From: Promethearchaeota archaeon | Lineage (GTDB): Archaea > Asgardarchaeota > Lokiarchaeia > Sigyniarchaeales > SOKP01 | Assembly (NCBI GenBank): GCA_048940645.1 | Contig: JBHLOI010000020.1 | Coordinates: forward strand, 1-55,490 | Length of the DNA: 55,490 nucleotides | Direction: 5' to 3' | In this document: positions 29,343 to 33,279 of the stretch, one piece after another | Position numbering within the stretch: position 1 is the stretch's first letter | How the letters are laid out: every line of letters begins with the position of its first letter | Translations under genes and position numbers: made by a program | The notes under the pieces: model-generated | Told to the model about the DNA's origin: nothing | The model's input: the letters and a program-made list of their open reading frames with translations, nothing else | Databases searched by the model: none

Positions 29343-29720
29343 ATGAGCGAAACTGTAGGACGAGAAGAGCCACCATTAAAATTTGATTTATATACAATAA
29401 TCTTCTTTGCAATTGGCTTTATAGCTTCATGGTTTAATATGATATTAATCTTAGAAGCACCCAGATATATTGAGGTTATAGCATATTTATCAATTATTTT
29501 TACTACAATTATTCCAGGTGTTATTATTGCTTTAAAAAAGAGATACTGGGGCTATGGGTATTTATTTGGATTTTCTATTGCTGGGATTCCTTTTATGATT
29601 ATAGTTGATTTATTCATTGGGGGTTATACATGTATTACTACTCTGTTTATCTTTATAATATTATGGCTAATATTTTGGAAAACATGGCGTTCTCTTAGCT
29701 CTATAAAGGTGGATGCATAA
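29343..29720 (+). CDS. Hypothetical 4-TM membrane protein
   Basis: Four hydrophobic segments in 125 aa. Confidence 0.7.
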   Translation: MSETVGREEPPLKFDLYTIIFFAIGFIASWFNMILILEAPRYIEVIAYLSIIFTTIIPGVIIALKKRYWGYGYLFGFSIAGIPFMIIVDLFIGGYTCITTLFIFIILWLIFWKTWRSLSSIKVDA

Positions 29721-29772
29721 ATTGAAGATAAAGTTTTTGGTCTTTACATTTAAAAAAATAGAAGAAGAAACA

Positions 29773-30249
29773 TTATTTAGAATGTAAGGGGATATCTTCT
29801 AATGTAATATTATTAACTTTTTTTATCGATAAAAACTTTTCTTTTATCAATTCTGTATTTAAATTATTGGATTCAAGAGTGTCTCCAATTAGATATGTTT
29901 CATAAAAGCATTTTTCTAATTCATAACAAATGCCAGTTGTGTGTAGTATATCTTTACTTAAATTTAGTTCACTTAATACTTCTGAAATACCTTTAACTAT
30001 TTCTGGTGAAAATTCTTCTAATTTTATTAGTATTTTCTTAATTAGTTTAGTATTTGTAGGAAAACAACTTACTTTTATAACATCTTCTCGGGATATAAAA
30101 ATTAATAAATAATAAGGCGAATCAATAATTTCTTCTTTCACTTCGTCAGGAAAAATTGTAAATTTCAAATCTTCTTTTGTTATAATTAAACCCAAAGAAA
30201 TTTTGTTTTTTTCTTTTCCCTCAGTGTTTTTAGCAACCATATCCATCAA
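29773..30249 (-). CDS. Hypothetical protein with ACT-like C-terminal domain
   Basis: 'ILIKLEEFSPEIVKGISEVLSELNL..DILHTTGIC....CFYETYL...IKEKFLSIKKVNNI' fits a beta-alpha-beta-beta-alpha-beta pattern. Confidence 0.5.
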   Translation of the reverse strand: MMDMVAKNTEGKEKNKISLGLIITKEDLKFTIFPDEVKEEIIDSPYYLLIFISREDVIKVSCFPTNTKLIKKILIKLEEFSPEIVKGISEVLSELNLSKDILHTTGICYELEKCFYETYLIGDTLESNNLNTELIKEKFLSIKKVNNITLEDIPLHSK

Positions 30250-30490
30250 AAAATCCTAAGTAATTAAAAATATATGTCTATTAATAAAATTTGTTTGTTT
30301 TTAATATTTATTTTTTTTTTTATTTAATTATATAATTTAAAATTCGTAATTTGGTATGTAATTAAAAAGCCCTTAAGTAAAAATAAAAAGATATAATCTG
30401 GATATTACAAAGATAACATACATATTTTAAAAAACAAGTTTAAGTTTGTTAATTATGTGATTTTGATTATTATAAAGAAAATTTTGAATT

Positions 30491-30985
30491 ATGTCTTATA
30501 AATTTAATGATATCGGCCAAAATATGGGTTTTGGTTTTGATATTGAAAGAATCAGCCGAAATGAGTGTTATTTCCATGCAATATATTTTTTAGATAATCT
30601 AACAGGTTCTCTCCTAGTTAGTAAAAAATACTCTGAATATTTGAATTCTCCTTCAAATGGAGATTTAATCAGTGGATTTTTAACTGCTTTAAATTTATTT
30701 ATAAAAGAAATAAAACCTGGTGATACGGATGAAGAGATTCAGGAAATTAATTTTAAAGAAACACGAATTTTATATGAAAGAAGAGGAAGACTTACTGTAA
30801 TTGCGATAACTAAAAAATCAACTATTCAATTTGAAAGACATATCTTAAATCTTATTGTAGATGATTTTTATAATCGATTTGGTAGATCAATAAATCAGTT
30901 TAATGGTATTATTGAACCTACAATTTTAGATTATAAAAAGAAGTTAAAAGTGCTTAGTTTATATAATTCTGATTTTGAAAAATAA
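30491..30985 (+). CDS. Longin-like domain protein
   Basis: 'IYFLDNLTGSLLVSKKY...DLISGFLTALNLFIKEI...IQEINFKETRILYE...IVDDFYNRF'. Confidence 0.7.
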   Translation: MSYKFNDIGQNMGFGFDIERISRNECYFHAIYFLDNLTGSLLVSKKYSEYLNSPSNGDLISGFLTALNLFIKEIKPGDTDEEIQEINFKETRILYERRGRLTVIAITKKSTIQFERHILNLIVDDFYNRFGRSINQFNGIIEPTILDYKKKLKVLSLYNSDFEK

Positions 30986-31005
30986 AGCTTTTAGAAAAAG
31001 GAGGG

Positions 31006-32373
31006 TTATTCTTCTTTCTTTTTCTCCTCTATTTTTTTAATTTCCCCTTCGATCTTTTCACTTATTCCTTTTATATCAGGTTTAATTTCCATTCGCTTTA
31101 AATCATCTTCTCGTTGTTTGTCTCTTCTAAAAGCTTTTTCACTAATTGTCTTTTCAATTGCTTCTCCTGCTTTTTCTAAATCTGGCTTTAATTCCATTCT
31201 TTTTTGATCTATCGCTCGTTGTTTATCCATTCTAAAAGCTTTCTCCCCTATTGTTTTTTCAATCGCTTGACCAGCTTTTTCCAAATCTAGTTTAATTTTT
31301 TTACGCTCTTCTTCTGCTTCACGTTGCTTTTCTAATCTAAATGCTTTTTCAGCTACGGTTTTACTTATTGCTTCTCCTGTTTTTCTAAAGTCTGGTTTCA
31401 GTTCCATTCTTTTCATATCTTCTTCTCTTTGTTTATCAATTCTAAAAGCTTTCTCCCCTATCGTTTTTTCAATGGCTTGACCGGCTCTATCTAAATCTGG
31501 TTTAATTTTTTTGAGTTCTTCTGCAGCCTCACGTTGTTTTTCCAGTCTAAATGCTTTTTCACCAACTGATTGGCTTATTACTTCACTTGCTTTTTCTAAA
31601 TCTGGTTTCAGTTCCATCCTTTTTTTATCTATCTCTCTTTGTTTATCTATTCTAAATGCTTTTTCTGCTACGGTTTTACTTATTGCCTCTCCTGTTTTTC
31701 TAAAATCTGGTTTTAATTCCATTCTTTTGACAGCCTCCTCACGTTGTTTTTCTAGCATAAAAGCTTTTTCACCAATTGATTTTTCAATTGCTTGTCCAGC
31801 TTTCTCTATATCAGGCTTTATTTTAAATCGTTGAGAATCGCTTTCCTTCTTTTTCTCAATTAAAAAAGCTTTTTCATCAATGGATTTACTAATTGCTTCG
31901 CTTTTTTTTTCTAAATCTGGTTTAATTTTAAGCCTTTGAGCATCGCTTTCTCTCTTTTTTTCTATCATGAATACTTTTTGGTCAACCGATTTACTTATAA
32001 CCTCTCCAGTGCCTCTTATATCAGGTTTTAGTTCTACTCTTTGTAAATCTTCCTCACGATGCTTCTCTCGTAAAAACGCTTTTTCACCAATTGTTTTTTC
32101 AATAGCACTTCCTTTTTGTTCTATATCTGGTTTTATATTCATTCTTTCTAAATCTTTTTCTCGTTGTTTCTCTCGCATGAAACTTTTTTCTGAAATCAAA
32201 TTGGAAATTAGATTTTTATTTTCTTCAAATGCCTTTTTTCTTTGTTCTTCAGTTAGTTTAAGATATTGTTCTCTTTCTTCTTTTTTTTTTTTATAAAGTT
32301 CATTAACAATTTTTTTTTGTTTTTCGATTTCCTCTGGAGTTAAGTCATTTTCATTTTCTTCCAATTTCCTCAC
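31006..32373 (-). CDS. Charged tandem-repeat protein with 11 x 35-aa repeats (nebulin-like pattern); GTG start
   Basis: 55-aa head + 11 exact 35-aa units + 15-aa tail; consensus I[SE]K[ST][IV]xEKAFxx[ED]KQRExDxxRMELKPDLEKAGEA. Confidence 0.85.
   Translation of the reverse strand: MRKLEENENDLTPEEIEKQKKIVNELYKKKKEEREQYLKLTEEQRKKAFEENKNLISNLISEKSFMREKQREKDLERMNIKPDIEQKGSAIEKTIGEKAFLREKHREEDLQRVELKPDIRGTGEVISKSVDQKVFMIEKKRESDAQRLKIKPDLEKKSEAISKSIDEKAFLIEKKKESDSQRFKIKPDIEKAGQAIEKSIGEKAFMLEKQREEAVKRMELKPDFRKTGEAISKTVAEKAFRIDKQREIDKKRMELKPDLEKASEVISQSVGEKAFRLEKQREAAEELKKIKPDLDRAGQAIEKTIGEKAFRIDKQREEDMKRMELKPDFRKTGEAISKTVAEKAFRLEKQREAEEERKKIKLDLEKAGQAIEKTIGEKAFRMDKQRAIDQKRMELKPDLEKAGEAIEKTISEKAFRRDKQREDDLKRMEIKPDIKGISEKIEGEIKKIEEKKKEE
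31054..32208 (-). repeat. 105-bp coding tandem repeat, 11 copies
   Basis: EKAF-type and KPD-type motifs recur every 35 codons without indels. Confidence 0.95.
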
Positions 32374-32532
32374 TTCAAAAAAAATAAAATACGTGTTTTT
32401 AAATATAATATCAAAATTTGTATTTATTAATTTACTTATCCAAGAATTAATAGTTTTAAATTTAAAGTAAGAAAATCAATGATGATAATGTAAGGGTTTG
32501 CGAATTCTGAGAATTTTATAATTAACATATTT

Positions 32533-33279
32533 CTATTTTATTGGTATCGGCTCAAATGACTCTTCAGAAACCGAATCCATTAAACTAATCATGGTCAGCT
32601 TCATCGTGAGCATTTCCATGACTTCTGTCAATAATTTTTGATAATAATTTGACTTTCTATCAACATTATATTTAGAAATTATTTCGTCATATTTTCTTTT
32701 CAGTAATAATTTTAAATTTTCATGTAAATCTAACTCTAATTTTTGTGTTTTTAACCAATTATCAATCTGATCTTTTATTTGAATTCCTAATTCATCATCT
32801 TTAGCATAGCTAATTTCTACTTCTTCAATATATTTAAGATTATCAAGATATTCCTGATCTTGATACATTGGCTTTAAAAGAAGACCTAAATTGATTATTA
32901 ATGGTTGAATTTGCAGTTTATCTAAAGAATCTGATAAAAGTTTTAAAATTTGCCTTTTCTGGGTTAATTTTGCATAGTTTATGTAATCTTGAATAAAGTT
33001 TAATATTGCATTTTTAATTAATAATTCTTGAAAATCATTTATTGATTCGATTTCTAAATCAAGGGTTTTTTCAATACAATTATATACAGCGTTCATAAAT
33101 GGTTTTATGCCCTTAAACATTGAGAAGTAATAAATAAATTGAACAATCTTCCCTAAAATTTCTTCTTTTATGTTTTCTGACTCAAAAGAAAAGTCAATTC
33201 TCTGTTTAAGATTAAACGAGTTATCAGGAATTGATAAAAAGTTCTTTATATCTGAATATTTAGATTCAAATACCATCAA
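32533..33279 (-). CDS. Hypothetical alpha-helical protein
   Basis: 248-aa ORF with no recognised motif. Confidence 0.7.
   Translation of the reverse strand: MMVFESKYSDIKNFLSIPDNSFNLKQRIDFSFESENIKEEILGKIVQFIYYFSMFKGIKPFMNAVYNCIEKTLDLEIESINDFQELLIKNAILNFIQDYINYAKLTQKRQILKLLSDSLDKLQIQPLIINLGLLLKPMYQDQEYLDNLKYIEEVEISYAKDDELGIQIKDQIDNWLKTQKLELDLHENLKLLLKRKYDEIISKYNVDRKSNYYQKLLTEVMEMLTMKLTMISLMDSVSEESFEPIPIK

What the first reader, a model, noticed from the sequence alone, without database searches (positions are those of the whole stretch)
31006..32373. Nebulin-like 35-residue tandem-repeat protein in an Asgard archaeon: candidate actin-filament ruler or stabiliser
Seen: a 55-aa head, then 11 consecutive units of exactly 35 aa with no indels (e.g. 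IEKTISEKAFRRDKQREDDLKRMEIKPDIKGISEK), then a 15-aa tail. It is very K/E/R-rich, lacks a globular core, and has one conserved aromatic and one Pro per unit (Leu in unit 9). Read from the Pro, a unit is PDLEKAGEAIEKTI-SEKAFR-RDKQRE. Established: animal nebulin/nebulette/LASP repeats are about 35 aa, follow P-x4-[AV]K...SDxxYK and bind one actin subunit each along the filament; Lokiarchaeia have true actin filaments and profilin/gelsolin regulators. Inference: the same period plus P-x4-A...[SGAD]E-x-x-F-[RML] suggests a homologous or convergent side-binding protein covering about 11 subunits. The head 'TPEEIEKQKKIVNELYK' also looks like a degenerate nebulin module. Strict length conservation despite sequence drift suggests a periodic partner. 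Caveats: the Ser is present in only 2 of 11 units, the P-to-S spacing is one residue longer than in nebulin as I recall it, and 35 is also five heptads. I know of no described nebulin-type protein in archaea.
Basis: partly seen in the sequence, partly recalled or inferred. Interest (0 to 1): 0.85.

Follow-up and report, generated by a model that had tools for sequence, protein, structure and literature searches.

The report
Lokiarchaeal 35-residue helical repeat rod
One family of Loki-type Asgard archaea carries a real, conserved, unnamed gene for a basic protein made of about eleven identical-length 35-residue helices strung together; it copies the layout of the muscle protein nebulin but shows no kinship with it, and whether it binds actin filaments remains untested.

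Summary
Window 31006-32373 (-) encodes a 455-aa protein with a 55-aa head, 11 ungapped 35-aa units and a 15-aa tail. The true start is probably TTG at 32364. The gene is under purifying selection (dN/dS 0.13-0.16), has its own conserved promoter, and occurs in 109 of 134 genomes of one GTDB family of Loki-type Asgard archaea. One 37-aa-unit relative lies in a sister family. In 90 distinct proteins, 761 of 771 unit spacings are exactly 35, while unit number varies from 2 to 13.

Nebulin homology is not supported: the Pfam Nebulin model never matches, there is no SDxxYK motif, and there is no conserved super-repeat. The only outside sequence signal is a weak, inconclusive resemblance to TPR arrays (HHalign probability 9%). 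AlphaFold (pTM 0.19) and coupling analysis indicate one salt-bridge-rich helix per unit, broken at each K-P-D, with no helix-helix packing.

My best reading (confidence about 0.35) is a segmented rod that shows the same surface every 35 residues to a periodic partner. Lokiactin fits geometrically but was not tested, because the complex job was not folded. Two genera lack the gene yet keep Lokiactin.

This scan has found the same family at least eight times on other genomes, with the same verdict.

The parts
31006..32373 (-). Coding sequence of the repeat protein. It is 455 aa from the GTG at 32373, or 452 aa from the more likely TTG start at 32364. The stop codon TAA is at 31006-31008.
   Evidence: dN/dS is 0.13-0.16 against close orthologs.
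32209..32373 (-). Conserved helical head (aa 1-55): LTPEEIEKQKKIV..LYKK.KEERE.YLK.TEEQRKKAFEE.
   Evidence: The head is always 55 aa in 30 orthologs. It is the most confident part of the AlphaFold model, with pLDDT 82-90. It has many near-invariant columns.
31054..32208 (-). Array of 11 units of exactly 35 aa (aa 56-440). The consensus is I[ES]K[TS][IV]xEKAFxx[ED]KQRExDxxRx[EK][IL]KPD[LI]xxxG[EQ]A.
   Evidence: AlphaFold with an alignment gives one helix per unit, broken at each KPD.
31009..31053 (-). Conserved 15-aa charged tail IEGEIKKIEEKKKEE.
   Evidence: The tail ...KPDIKGI(S/G)EKIE.EIEKIE.KKK is conserved across orthologs and metagenome fragments.
32396..32433 (-). Conserved upstream element AAATTAATAAATACAAATTTTGATATTATATTTAAAAA. 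Its 3' part is TATA-box-like (32396-32410). I read it as the gene's own promoter.
   Evidence: It is nearly identical across genera at a fixed distance from the start. The sequence is shown. Promoter function is inferred.
32368..32373 (-). Conserved word GTGAGG, Shine-Dalgarno-like, 3 nt upstream of the TTG at 32364.
   Evidence: GTGAG(G/A) followed by ATG or TTG at codon 4 is present in about 20 orthologs. Its function is inferred.
30977..31000 (-). T-rich tracts (CTTTTTC ... TTTATTTTT) just after the stop codon. They are a likely archaeal oligo-T terminator and overlap the 3' end of the convergent gene at 30491-30985 (+).
   Evidence: The sequence is shown. Terminator function is inferred.

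Best explanation
This is a real, separately transcribed gene for a basic (pI 9.2), cytoplasmic protein. The protein is a segmented rod: a conserved helical head, eleven interchangeable 35-residue modules and a short conserved tail. Each module is one alpha-helix of about 31 residues that is rich in intrahelical salt bridges and bounded by a K-P-D kink. Modules do not pack on one another, so the chain is extended; the array would measure about 58 nm if straight. Every 35 residues it presents the same invariant surface: I1, E7-K8-A9-F10, K14, R16-E17, D19, R22 and K26-P27-D28. I infer that it works by lying along a periodic partner with one module per partner subunit, as a filament side-binder, stabiliser or spacer. 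Unit number, which varies from 2 to 13 between species, would set the length covered. Lokiactin filaments are the best candidate on geometry: 35 helical residues span about 52.5 A and 37 span about 55.5 A, against 55.8 A per subunit along one strand. Neither the partner nor any binding has been shown. Shown: the gene, its conservation, the strict period, the helical modular structure and the absence of nebulin homology. Inferred: the periodic partner. Speculative: that the partner is actin.
For: Gene reality: the ORF is intact in 109 of 134 genomes of one GTDB family, dN/dS is 0.13-0.16, and a conserved promoter-like element and SD-like word lie upstream. Strict period: 761 of 771 spacings are exactly 35 in 90 proteins from 11 genera. 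Modules are interchangeable, because positional identity is lost between genera (diagonal and off-diagonal identity both about 0.5). One helix per module with breaks at KPD: AlphaFold with a 40-sequence alignment. No compact fold: pTM 0.18-0.19 and no Foldseek match in the PDB. Mean-field DCA on 683 two-unit windows (Meff 337) gives only couplings at separations 1-4 and 7, plus the 35-residue repeat echo, with no hairpin pattern. Opposite-charge i,i+3/i+4 pairs number 0.354 per residue against 0.253+-0.019 when shuffled. Invariant charged and aromatic residues recur in every module and lie all around the helix. This is more than a passive spacer or a generic coiled coil would need. The Lokiactin rise is 27.9 A per subunit (PMC9834061). 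The genome has at least five actin-family genes, including canonical Lokiactin.
Against: There is no direct evidence for any partner. Two genera of the same family (9 genomes, 61-98% complete) lack the gene at the same syntenic slot yet keep Lokiactin. It was not found with this query in 266 other genomes of the phylum outside families f1 and f3. So it is not a general actin cofactor. Unit number varies up to six-fold, which argues against a fixed ruler. A straight 35-residue helix is about 3 A short of the actin strand repeat. No actin, profilin or gelsolin gene lies nearby, and synteny says nothing about function. AlphaFold confidence in the array is only pLDDT 50-75, so the one-helix-per-module picture is not certain.
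Confidence: 0.35

Rival explanations
1. Self-assembling structural protein. The helices associate between chains, as a coiled-coil-like dimer or bundle or as a lattice or filament of its own. The strict 35-residue period (five heptads) would keep chains in register.
For: 35 equals 5 x 7. A narrow hydrophobic stripe (I3, G7, I10, I14, A18, I21 counted from Pro) runs along two thirds of each helix and includes small residues that suit close helix packing. The head has high pLDDT as a long helix. AlphaFold monomers of coiled-coil proteins also appear as lone helices.
Against: A conserved Pro (82% of 790 units) and a Gly/Ala/Ser six residues later punctuate every unit, which is unusual inside canonical coiled coils. 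The hydrophobic periodicity is ambiguous, with peaks at 3.9 and 3.46 residues rather than a clean 3.5. The last third of each unit is almost purely charged. DCA shows no separation-5 (g-e') couplings. Self-association was not tested.
Confidence: 0.2
2. Passive spacer or tether. The modules are single-alpha-helix (ER/K-like) rods that only set a distance, and the conserved head and tail do the binding.
For: Intrahelical salt-bridge pairs are enriched (z about 5). Head and tail are conserved while unit number varies from 2 to 13. Units are interchangeable. Some members carry an extra C-terminal peptide motif, KWLDQLKK.RK.
Against: A spacer does not need invariant I1, K8, F10, K14, K26 and D28 in every unit across genera, nor a unit length fixed to the residue. 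dN/dS of 0.13-0.16 over a gene that is 85% repeats implies constraint on the modules themselves.
Confidence: 0.15
3. A degenerate TPR/PPR-type alpha-solenoid. Each unit is a helix-turn-helix derived from a 34/35-residue TPR-like repeat, and the protein acts as a protein- or RNA-binding scaffold.
For: In an exhaustive phmmer search of 1.84 billion proteins, 12 of the 14 long non-family hits are TPR arrays (E 3e-12 to 1e-3). The alignments are in one register, Pro to Pro (...A-I-E-I-K-P-D), with one gap per unit. The HHalign score of three-unit profiles is 21.0, against 8.3+-2.2 for 120 column-permuted controls, none of which reached it.
Against: HHalign probability is only 9%. The TPR set was itself selected by similarity to the query, and repeat-on-repeat matching inflates E-values. 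No Pfam TPR or PPR model matches any of 40 members at E<=10. The TPR core positions W4, G8, A20, F24 and A27 are E/G, E/S, Q, D and R here. AlphaFold does not build a solenoid. DCA shows no antiparallel helix contacts. Charged residues make up 51% of the sequence.
Confidence: 0.12
4. Nucleic-acid or chromatin binder. The basic rod lays a Lys stripe with a central Phe along DNA or RNA.
For: pI is 9.24, with a net charge of +14 and +1 to +3 per unit. On a helical wheel, K5, K12, K23 and K30 (counted from Pro) line up with F19 on one face (inference).
Against: No nucleic-acid-binding family matches. Acidic residues are almost as abundant as basic ones. A 52-A period matches no simple DNA repeat.
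Confidence: 0.08
5. Lipid- or membrane-binding amphipathic repeat, or stress hydrophilin (apolipoprotein- or LEA-like Pro-punctuated helices).
For: The tandem helices are Pro-punctuated, as in exchangeable apolipoproteins. One weak phmmer hit (P0049) carries an apolipoprotein-like domain that scores below the Pfam cut-off. A short AG.AIEK motif matches the Pfam Entericidin model.
Against: Mean hydrophobicity is about 0. Only 1 of 438 18-residue windows passes a Heliquest-type lipid-binding discriminant with H>0.2 (the scale was recalled from memory). 35 is not a multiple of 11. Pfam Apolipoprotein does not match.
Confidence: 0.05
6. True homolog of animal nebulin, nebulette or LASP repeats.
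For: The modal repeat length is the same (35 aa). A Pro starts the helix and an aromatic lies 18 residues later (17 in nebulin), within [SGDA]-E-x-x-F-[RML] against S-D-x-x-Y-K (10.1101/2021.10.06.463400).
Against: PF00880 gives no match at E<=10 to the protein, to 40 orthologs, or to this gene in a six-frame genome scan, where seven unrelated places and 9 of 14 control genomes score equally. A PDB profile search finds no nebulin. There is no seven-module super-repeat. The family is confined to one archaeal family, so vertical descent to animals is implausible.
Confidence: 0.03

Closest known systems
Nebulin simple repeats (Pfam PF00880; nebulin, nebulette, LASP, N-RAP)
   Same: Both are tandem modules of about 35 residues, mostly helical, with a Pro at the helix start and one conserved aromatic about 17-18 residues later. 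Both are basic and lack a globular core. Module length is close to one actin subunit along a strand. Copy number varies between species.
   Different: There is no sequence or profile similarity. The motif is E-K-A-F with invariant Lys and Phe, not SDxxYK with invariant Tyr. Unit length is fixed at exactly 35, whereas nebulin ranges from 31 to 38. There is no seven-module super-repeat and no positional module identity. There are 2-13 modules rather than about 185. Actin binding has not been shown.
Tetratricopeptide (TPR) and pentatricopeptide (PPR) repeats
   Same: The period is 34/35 residues, with a loop Pro preceded by [AR]-[IM]-E-[IL]-K. Hydrophobic residues sit at TPR positions 7, 11, 28 and 30. 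TPR is the only known family that a sequence search links to this protein.
   Different: The core positions are polar or charged. Pfam TPR models do not match. HHalign probability is 9%. AlphaFold and DCA indicate one continuous helix per unit rather than a hairpin.
Single alpha-helix (ER/K) domains, as in myosin VI/X and caldesmon
   Same: The helices are very rich in K, E and R, with an excess of i,i+3/i+4 opposite-charge pairs. The protein is predicted to be extended, with no tertiary contacts.
   Different: The helices are punctuated by Pro every 35 residues. Each unit has invariant hydrophobic and aromatic positions and an exact repeat length. None of this is expected in ER/K rods.
Exchangeable apolipoproteins (Pfam PF01442), Pro-punctuated amphipathic helix repeats
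   Same: Both are tandem helices separated by Pro kinks, evolving by unit duplication.
   Different: The period is 35, not 11 or 22. Hydrophobicity is too low and the charge pattern is wrong for lipid binding. There is no Pfam match.

Membership tests
Nebulin repeat (PF00880) | A match to the Pfam Nebulin profile | tested here: not met
   There is no hit at E<=10 for P0001 or for any of 40 orthologs among the families listed. A six-frame scan of the whole genome at E<=10 hits seven other places but not this gene, and 9 of 14 control genomes score at the same level.
Nebulin repeat (PF00880) | An SDxxYK motif with a fully conserved Tyr (positions 18-23, with Pro at about position 5) | tested here: not met
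   The motif here is [G/S/D/A]-E-K-A-F-[R/L/M]. Over 790 units it is F in 95% and Y in 3%. Ser occurs in 2 of 11 units here. The Pro-to-aromatic distance is 18, not 17 (nebulin numbering from 10.1101/2021.10.06.463400).
Nebulin repeat (PF00880) | Simple repeats of about 35 residues (31-38) | tested here: met
   Units are exactly 35 aa in 761 of 771 spacings.
Nebulin repeat (PF00880) | A super-repeat of seven modules with position-specific conservation | tested here: not met
   Only recent 2- and 3-unit duplications are seen. Between genera, a unit is no more similar to the unit at the same position than to any other.
Nebulin repeat (PF00880) | One module binds one actin subunit along F-actin | not testable with these tools
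   The complex job (two Lokiactin chains, ADP and three modules) was not folded. No binding data exist.
TPR (PF00515 and clan) | A match to the Pfam TPR profiles | tested here: not met
   No TPR family appears among the hits of P0001 at E<=10 or among the 25 families shown of 93 matched by the 40 orthologs.
TPR (PF00515 and clan) | Signature residues W4, L7, G8, Y11, A20, F24, A27 and P32 | tested here: not met
   Only L7 (as I1), Y11 (as I/V5) and P32 (as P27) are kept. The other positions are G/E, E/S, Q, D and R.
TPR (PF00515 and clan) | Profile-profile similarity | tested here: inconclusive
   HHalign gives probability 9%, P 0.0037 and score 21.0. This is above all 120 column-permuted controls (maximum 17.7), but the TPR set was chosen by its similarity to the query.
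TPR (PF00515 and clan) | An antiparallel helix A / helix B hairpin in each unit | tested here: not met
   AlphaFold gives one helix per unit. The top DCA couplings are all local helical or repeat echoes. Neither test is decisive at this confidence and depth.
Single alpha-helix (ER/K) domain | A dense i,i+3/i+4 network of opposite charges | tested here: met
   There are 0.354 pairs per residue, against 0.253+-0.019 in 500 shuffles.
Single alpha-helix (ER/K) domain | An uninterrupted helix without conserved hydrophobic positions | tested here: not met
   Pro is present in 82% of units, and I1, I/V5, F10 and I/L25 are invariant or nearly so.
Entericidin EcnA/B (PF08085) | A lipoprotein of about 45 aa with a signal peptide and a lipobox Cys | tested here: not met
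   The Pfam score of 37.5 exceeds the cut-off of 23.3, but only by summing three 12-residue matches to AG.AIEK.IGEK. The protein has 455 aa, no Cys and no signal peptide. This is a false positive, and it recurs in 24 of 40 orthologs.
Apolipoprotein A1/A4/E (PF01442) | Amphipathic lipid-binding helices of 11 or 22 residues | tested here: not met
   There is no Pfam match. The period is 35. Only 1 of 438 windows passes a lipid-binding discriminant with H>0.2.

The most novel reading that the evidence does not exclude
The protein is the first archaeal filament side-binder. It would be a convergent, nebulin-like decorator that lays one 35-residue helix on each Lokiactin subunit along a strand, covering about 11 subunits (about 61 nm), and stabilises, stiffens or spaces actin filaments in this Lokiarchaeal family. 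The 37-residue Pro-less variant in the sister family would span the same 55-56 A.
Probability: 0.13. Interest if true: 0.88.

Novelty: new variant of a known kind. Interest (0 to 1): 0.55.

Why it matters
The actin regulators known in Asgard archaea are essentially profilins and gelsolins (PMC13716822). No side-binding, length-setting or stiffening factor has been described for Lokiactin filaments. This family is conserved, lineage-specific and of exact period, with a module length close to the actin subunit repeat. That makes a concrete hypothesis testable with recombinant proteins alone. If it does decorate actin or another Asgard polymer, it would show that modular 'one repeat per subunit' filament binders arose independently in archaea. 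If it does not, it is still an unnamed family with an unusually rigid repeat length, and current annotation pipelines would mislabel it as Entericidin.

Tried and rejected
1. Complex prediction (two Lokiactin chains from alignment A2, 2 ADP and modules 187-296 of A1) was returned NOT FOLDED because the actin looks eukaryotic.
3. The search for homologous proteins ('near' lengths) found only a 6% fragment. The exhaustive phmmer search was needed to find the family.
4. The Atlas feature search returned nothing for the protein or for the upstream 248-aa gene.
5. Foldseek against the PDB found no match for the AlphaFold model. A PDB sequence-profile search found only designed antiparallel coiled-coil barrels at E about 1e-3.
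6. Gene neighbourhood. The four-gene block around the repeat gene is conserved in 30-35 of 39 loci. However, the same block persists, with the 164-aa and 248-aa genes abutting, in the two genera that lack the repeat gene. The 37-aa homolog in family f3 has different neighbours. I therefore drew no functional inference from synteny.
7. Heptad or hendecad reading of the unit. The hydrophobic-moment spectrum is ambiguous, with peaks at 3.9 and 3.46 residues per turn, so I rejected it as a basis for a coiled-coil or 11-mer claim.
8. The TPR lead was kept only as a rival, for the reasons given there.
9. The NCBIfam hits (D-arabinitol dehydrogenase, 23.8 bits against a cut-off of 600) are noise.
Full report
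OBSERVATION. The minus-strand ORF at 31006-32373 translates to 455 residues. Cut in a 35-residue register from residue 56, it gives 11 ungapped units followed by a 15-residue tail. Columns I1, K8, F10, K14, K26 and D28 are invariant. E7, R16, E17, R22 and P27 are present in 10 of 11 units, and unit 9 has Leu in place of Pro. Pairwise unit identity is 40-83%. Tandem Repeats Finder reports the 105-nt period, plus 210- and 315-nt periods that reflect recent 2- and 3-unit duplications. The composition is K 19%, E 18%, R 8% and D 6%, with no Cys or Trp. The pI is 9.24 and the net charge is +14.

GENE MODEL. About 20 orthologs share an upstream element, AAATTA(A/T)TAAATACAAATTTTGATATTATATTTAAAAA, at a fixed distance from the start. 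This element is followed by GTGAG(G/A). Codon 4 is ATG or TTG in all of them. I read the element as the gene's own TATA-type promoter and GTGAGG as a Shine-Dalgarno-like site. On that reading the true start is TTG at 32364, giving 452 aa, which agrees with the Atlas record that begins at residue 4. T-rich tracts follow the stop codon. dN/dS against close orthologs is 0.13-0.16. The two plus-strand ORFs inside the array (31511-31834 and 31967-32296) are shadows of the repeat.

DISTRIBUTION. A word-indexed search found almost nothing. An exhaustive phmmer search of 1.84 billion representative proteins found 61 hits. About 45 of them are true relatives, mostly fragments from short metagenome contigs, and they share the head, the units and the tail. 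A six-frame search of 400 genomes of the phylum found the gene in 109 of 134 genomes of the window's own GTDB family, in 11 of its 13 genera. Outside that family there is only one convincing relative, in a sister family. NCBI titles of matching contigs name Promethearchaeota or Promethearchaeia MAGs, that is, Loki-type Asgard archaea. The gene is single-copy in this genome.

THE PERIOD. With a unit HMM, 312 of 312 unit-to-unit spacings in the 30 best orthologs are exactly 35. The same holds in divergent genera at 41-48% identity. Overall, 761 of 771 spacings in 90 distinct proteins are 35, and the exceptions are the transition from the last unit to the tail. Unit number ranges from 2 to 13, with a mode of 10-12. 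The head is always 55 aa when counted from the GTG.

Between genera, a unit is no more similar to the unit at the same position than to any other; diagonal and off-diagonal identities are both about 0.5. Units are therefore interchangeable and turn over by duplication and loss, and there is no conserved super-repeat. The sister-family homolog (L084) and several metagenome relatives (P0009, P0018, P0024, P0061) have 37-residue units that lack the Pro and carry IGKxVD or VTKNIxIE instead of IKPD. Unit length is thus fixed within a lineage but differs between lineages.

NEBULIN TEST. Pfam Nebulin (PF00880) gives no match at E<=10 to this protein or to 40 orthologs. A six-frame scan of the whole genome at E<=10 hits seven unrelated places but not this gene, and 9 of 14 control genomes score at the same level. 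A profile of the family searched against all PDB sequences finds no nebulin. According to 10.1101/2021.10.06.463400, nebulin repeats are 31-38 aa, carry SDxxYK at positions 18-23 with a fully conserved Tyr22, start helix H1 at a Pro at about position 5, form two helices with a kink and a loop, and contact three actin subunits. Here the corresponding motif is [G/S/D/A]-E-K-A-F-[R/L/M], with invariant Lys and Phe, 18 residues after the Pro. The layout is analogous, but homology is not supported.

STRUCTURE. AlphaFold on the single sequence gives an all-helical model with pLDDT 73 and pTM 0.18. With a 40-ortholog alignment (A1) it gives pLDDT 64 and pTM 0.19. In that model one helix of about 30 residues forms per unit and breaks at nearly every K-P-D, and the head is confident at pLDDT 82-90. 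Foldseek finds no PDB match.

I ran mean-field DCA on 683 unique two-unit windows (Meff 337). The top 45 couplings are at separations 1-4 and 7, as expected within a helix, or at exactly 35, which is the repeat echo. There is no antiparallel hairpin pattern. Opposite-charge i,i+3/i+4 pairs are enriched, at 0.354 against 0.253+-0.019. Together these results favour a chain of single, salt-bridge-stabilised helices joined by Pro kinks. They argue against both a self-folded solenoid and a plain uninterrupted coiled coil. On a helical wheel the conserved residues lie all around the helix (inference).

A NEW LEAD: TPR. Of the 14 long hits outside the family, 12 are TPR arrays, one has an apolipoprotein-like domain that scores below cut-off, and one is unrelated. 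BLAST alignments are in a single register, Pro to Pro (K-A-I-E-I-K-P-D against K-R-M-E-L-K-P-D), with one gap per unit.

HHalign of three-unit profiles gives probability 9%, P 0.0037 and score 21.0. The 120 column-permuted controls score 8.3+-2.2, with a maximum of 17.7. This resemblance goes beyond composition and period, but it is inconclusive. The TPR set was selected by the query, repeat-on-repeat scoring inflates significance, Pfam TPR models do not match, and the TPR core positions are polar here. I keep a TPR origin as a minor rival.

CONTEXT. The neighbours are a 125-aa membrane protein, unnamed proteins of 158, 164 and 248 aa, and a DUF362 protein. They are conserved in 30-35 of 39 related loci. 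In the two genera that lack the repeat gene, the same block persists and the 164-aa and 248-aa genes abut. The 37-aa homolog has different neighbours. Synteny therefore says nothing about function. Those two genera still carry Lokiactin.

This genome has at least five actin-family genes on other contigs. They include a complete paralog (L098, 378 aa) and a contig-end fragment that is 99% identical to the family's canonical 381-aa Lokiactin.

ACTIN. The Lokiactin filament rise is 27.9 A per subunit (PMC9834061), which is 55.8 A along one strand. Thirty-five helical residues span about 52.5 A, and 37 span about 55.5 A. The fit is suggestive but it is only geometry. The one complex job (two Lokiactin chains, ADP and three modules) was not folded by the tool, so actin binding remains untested. 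[quoted passage not shown]

VERDICT. This is a real, conserved, unnamed, lineage-specific protein family. It is a basic, extended, segmented helical rod with an exact 35-residue module. I think it most likely presents one identical binding surface per module to a periodic partner (confidence 0.35). Lokiactin as that partner has a probability of about 0.13. The rivals are self-assembly (0.20), a passive SAH-type spacer (0.15), a degenerate TPR solenoid (0.12), nucleic-acid binding (0.08), lipid binding (0.05) and true nebulin homology (0.03). Earlier notes of this scan reached the same reading on at least eight other genomes.
- the corrected start and the conserved promoter;
- the presence/absence polymorphism at a fixed syntenic slot;
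- the 37-residue sister form;
- the coupling analysis;
- the weak TPR signal.

Noticed in passing
window 32362-32433 (-): A roughly 38-nt upstream element with a TATA-like 3' part and the word GTGAGG are conserved across genera. Codon 4 (TTG at 32364) is ATG or TTG in all orthologs, so the annotated GTG start is probably part of the ribosome-binding site.
   Followed up: yes
window 29343-30985 and 32533-33279: This is a conserved block of unnamed genes: a 125-aa membrane protein (+), a 158-aa protein (-), a 164-aa protein (+) and a 248-aa protein (-). None has a Pfam or NCBIfam family. The block persists in genera that lack the repeat gene. By eye, the 164-aa protein resembles a roadblock/longin-type domain, but this was not tested.
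   Followed up: partly
L028, L054, L055, L078; P0003, P0005, P0026, P0029: A minority of family members (6 of 121 ORFs) carry an extra C-terminal peptide, D.EKWL(D/E)QLKK.RK, after the tail. From memory it resembles an MIT-interacting motif (MIM1) of ESCRT-III proteins. The window's protein lacks it.
   Followed up: no
L084 (G132:C17, 1492-2379 -); P0009, P0018, P0024, P0061: This is a sister form of the family with 37-residue units and no Pro (IGKxVD or VTKNIxIE in place of IKPD). It occurs in another GTDB family of the same order and in metagenomes.
   Followed up: partly
P0001 and alignment A1: Pfam Entericidin (PF08085) scores above its gathering cut-off in 24 of 40 orthologs by summing tiny matches to AG.AIEK. 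UBA_SIK3 matches 18 of 40. Automatic annotation would mislabel this family.
   Followed up: yes
P0008 (199 aa, metagenome): The head and two units read straight into a canonical TPR array at the LKPD junction (…ELKPDFKEAYLGLAISY…). This is either a chimeric contig or a real fusion that bears on the TPR lead.
   Followed up: no
G000:C57:45547-46680 (-) = L098; G000:C50:8873-9850 (+) = L099: The genome has two close Lokiactin copies: a complete 378-aa paralog that is 83-84% identical to the family's canonical actin, and the canonical copy cut by a contig end. Close orthologs (93-98% identity) of the 378-aa copy were seen only in two other genomes of the same genus among the 41 sampled. A 400-aa gene with a TrmB-like region lies directly downstream of the complete copy.
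   Followed up: partly
window 31511-31834 (+) and 31967-32296 (+): These long antisense ORFs inside the repeat array recur in related loci. They are shadows of the periodic coding strand, not genes.
   Followed up: partly
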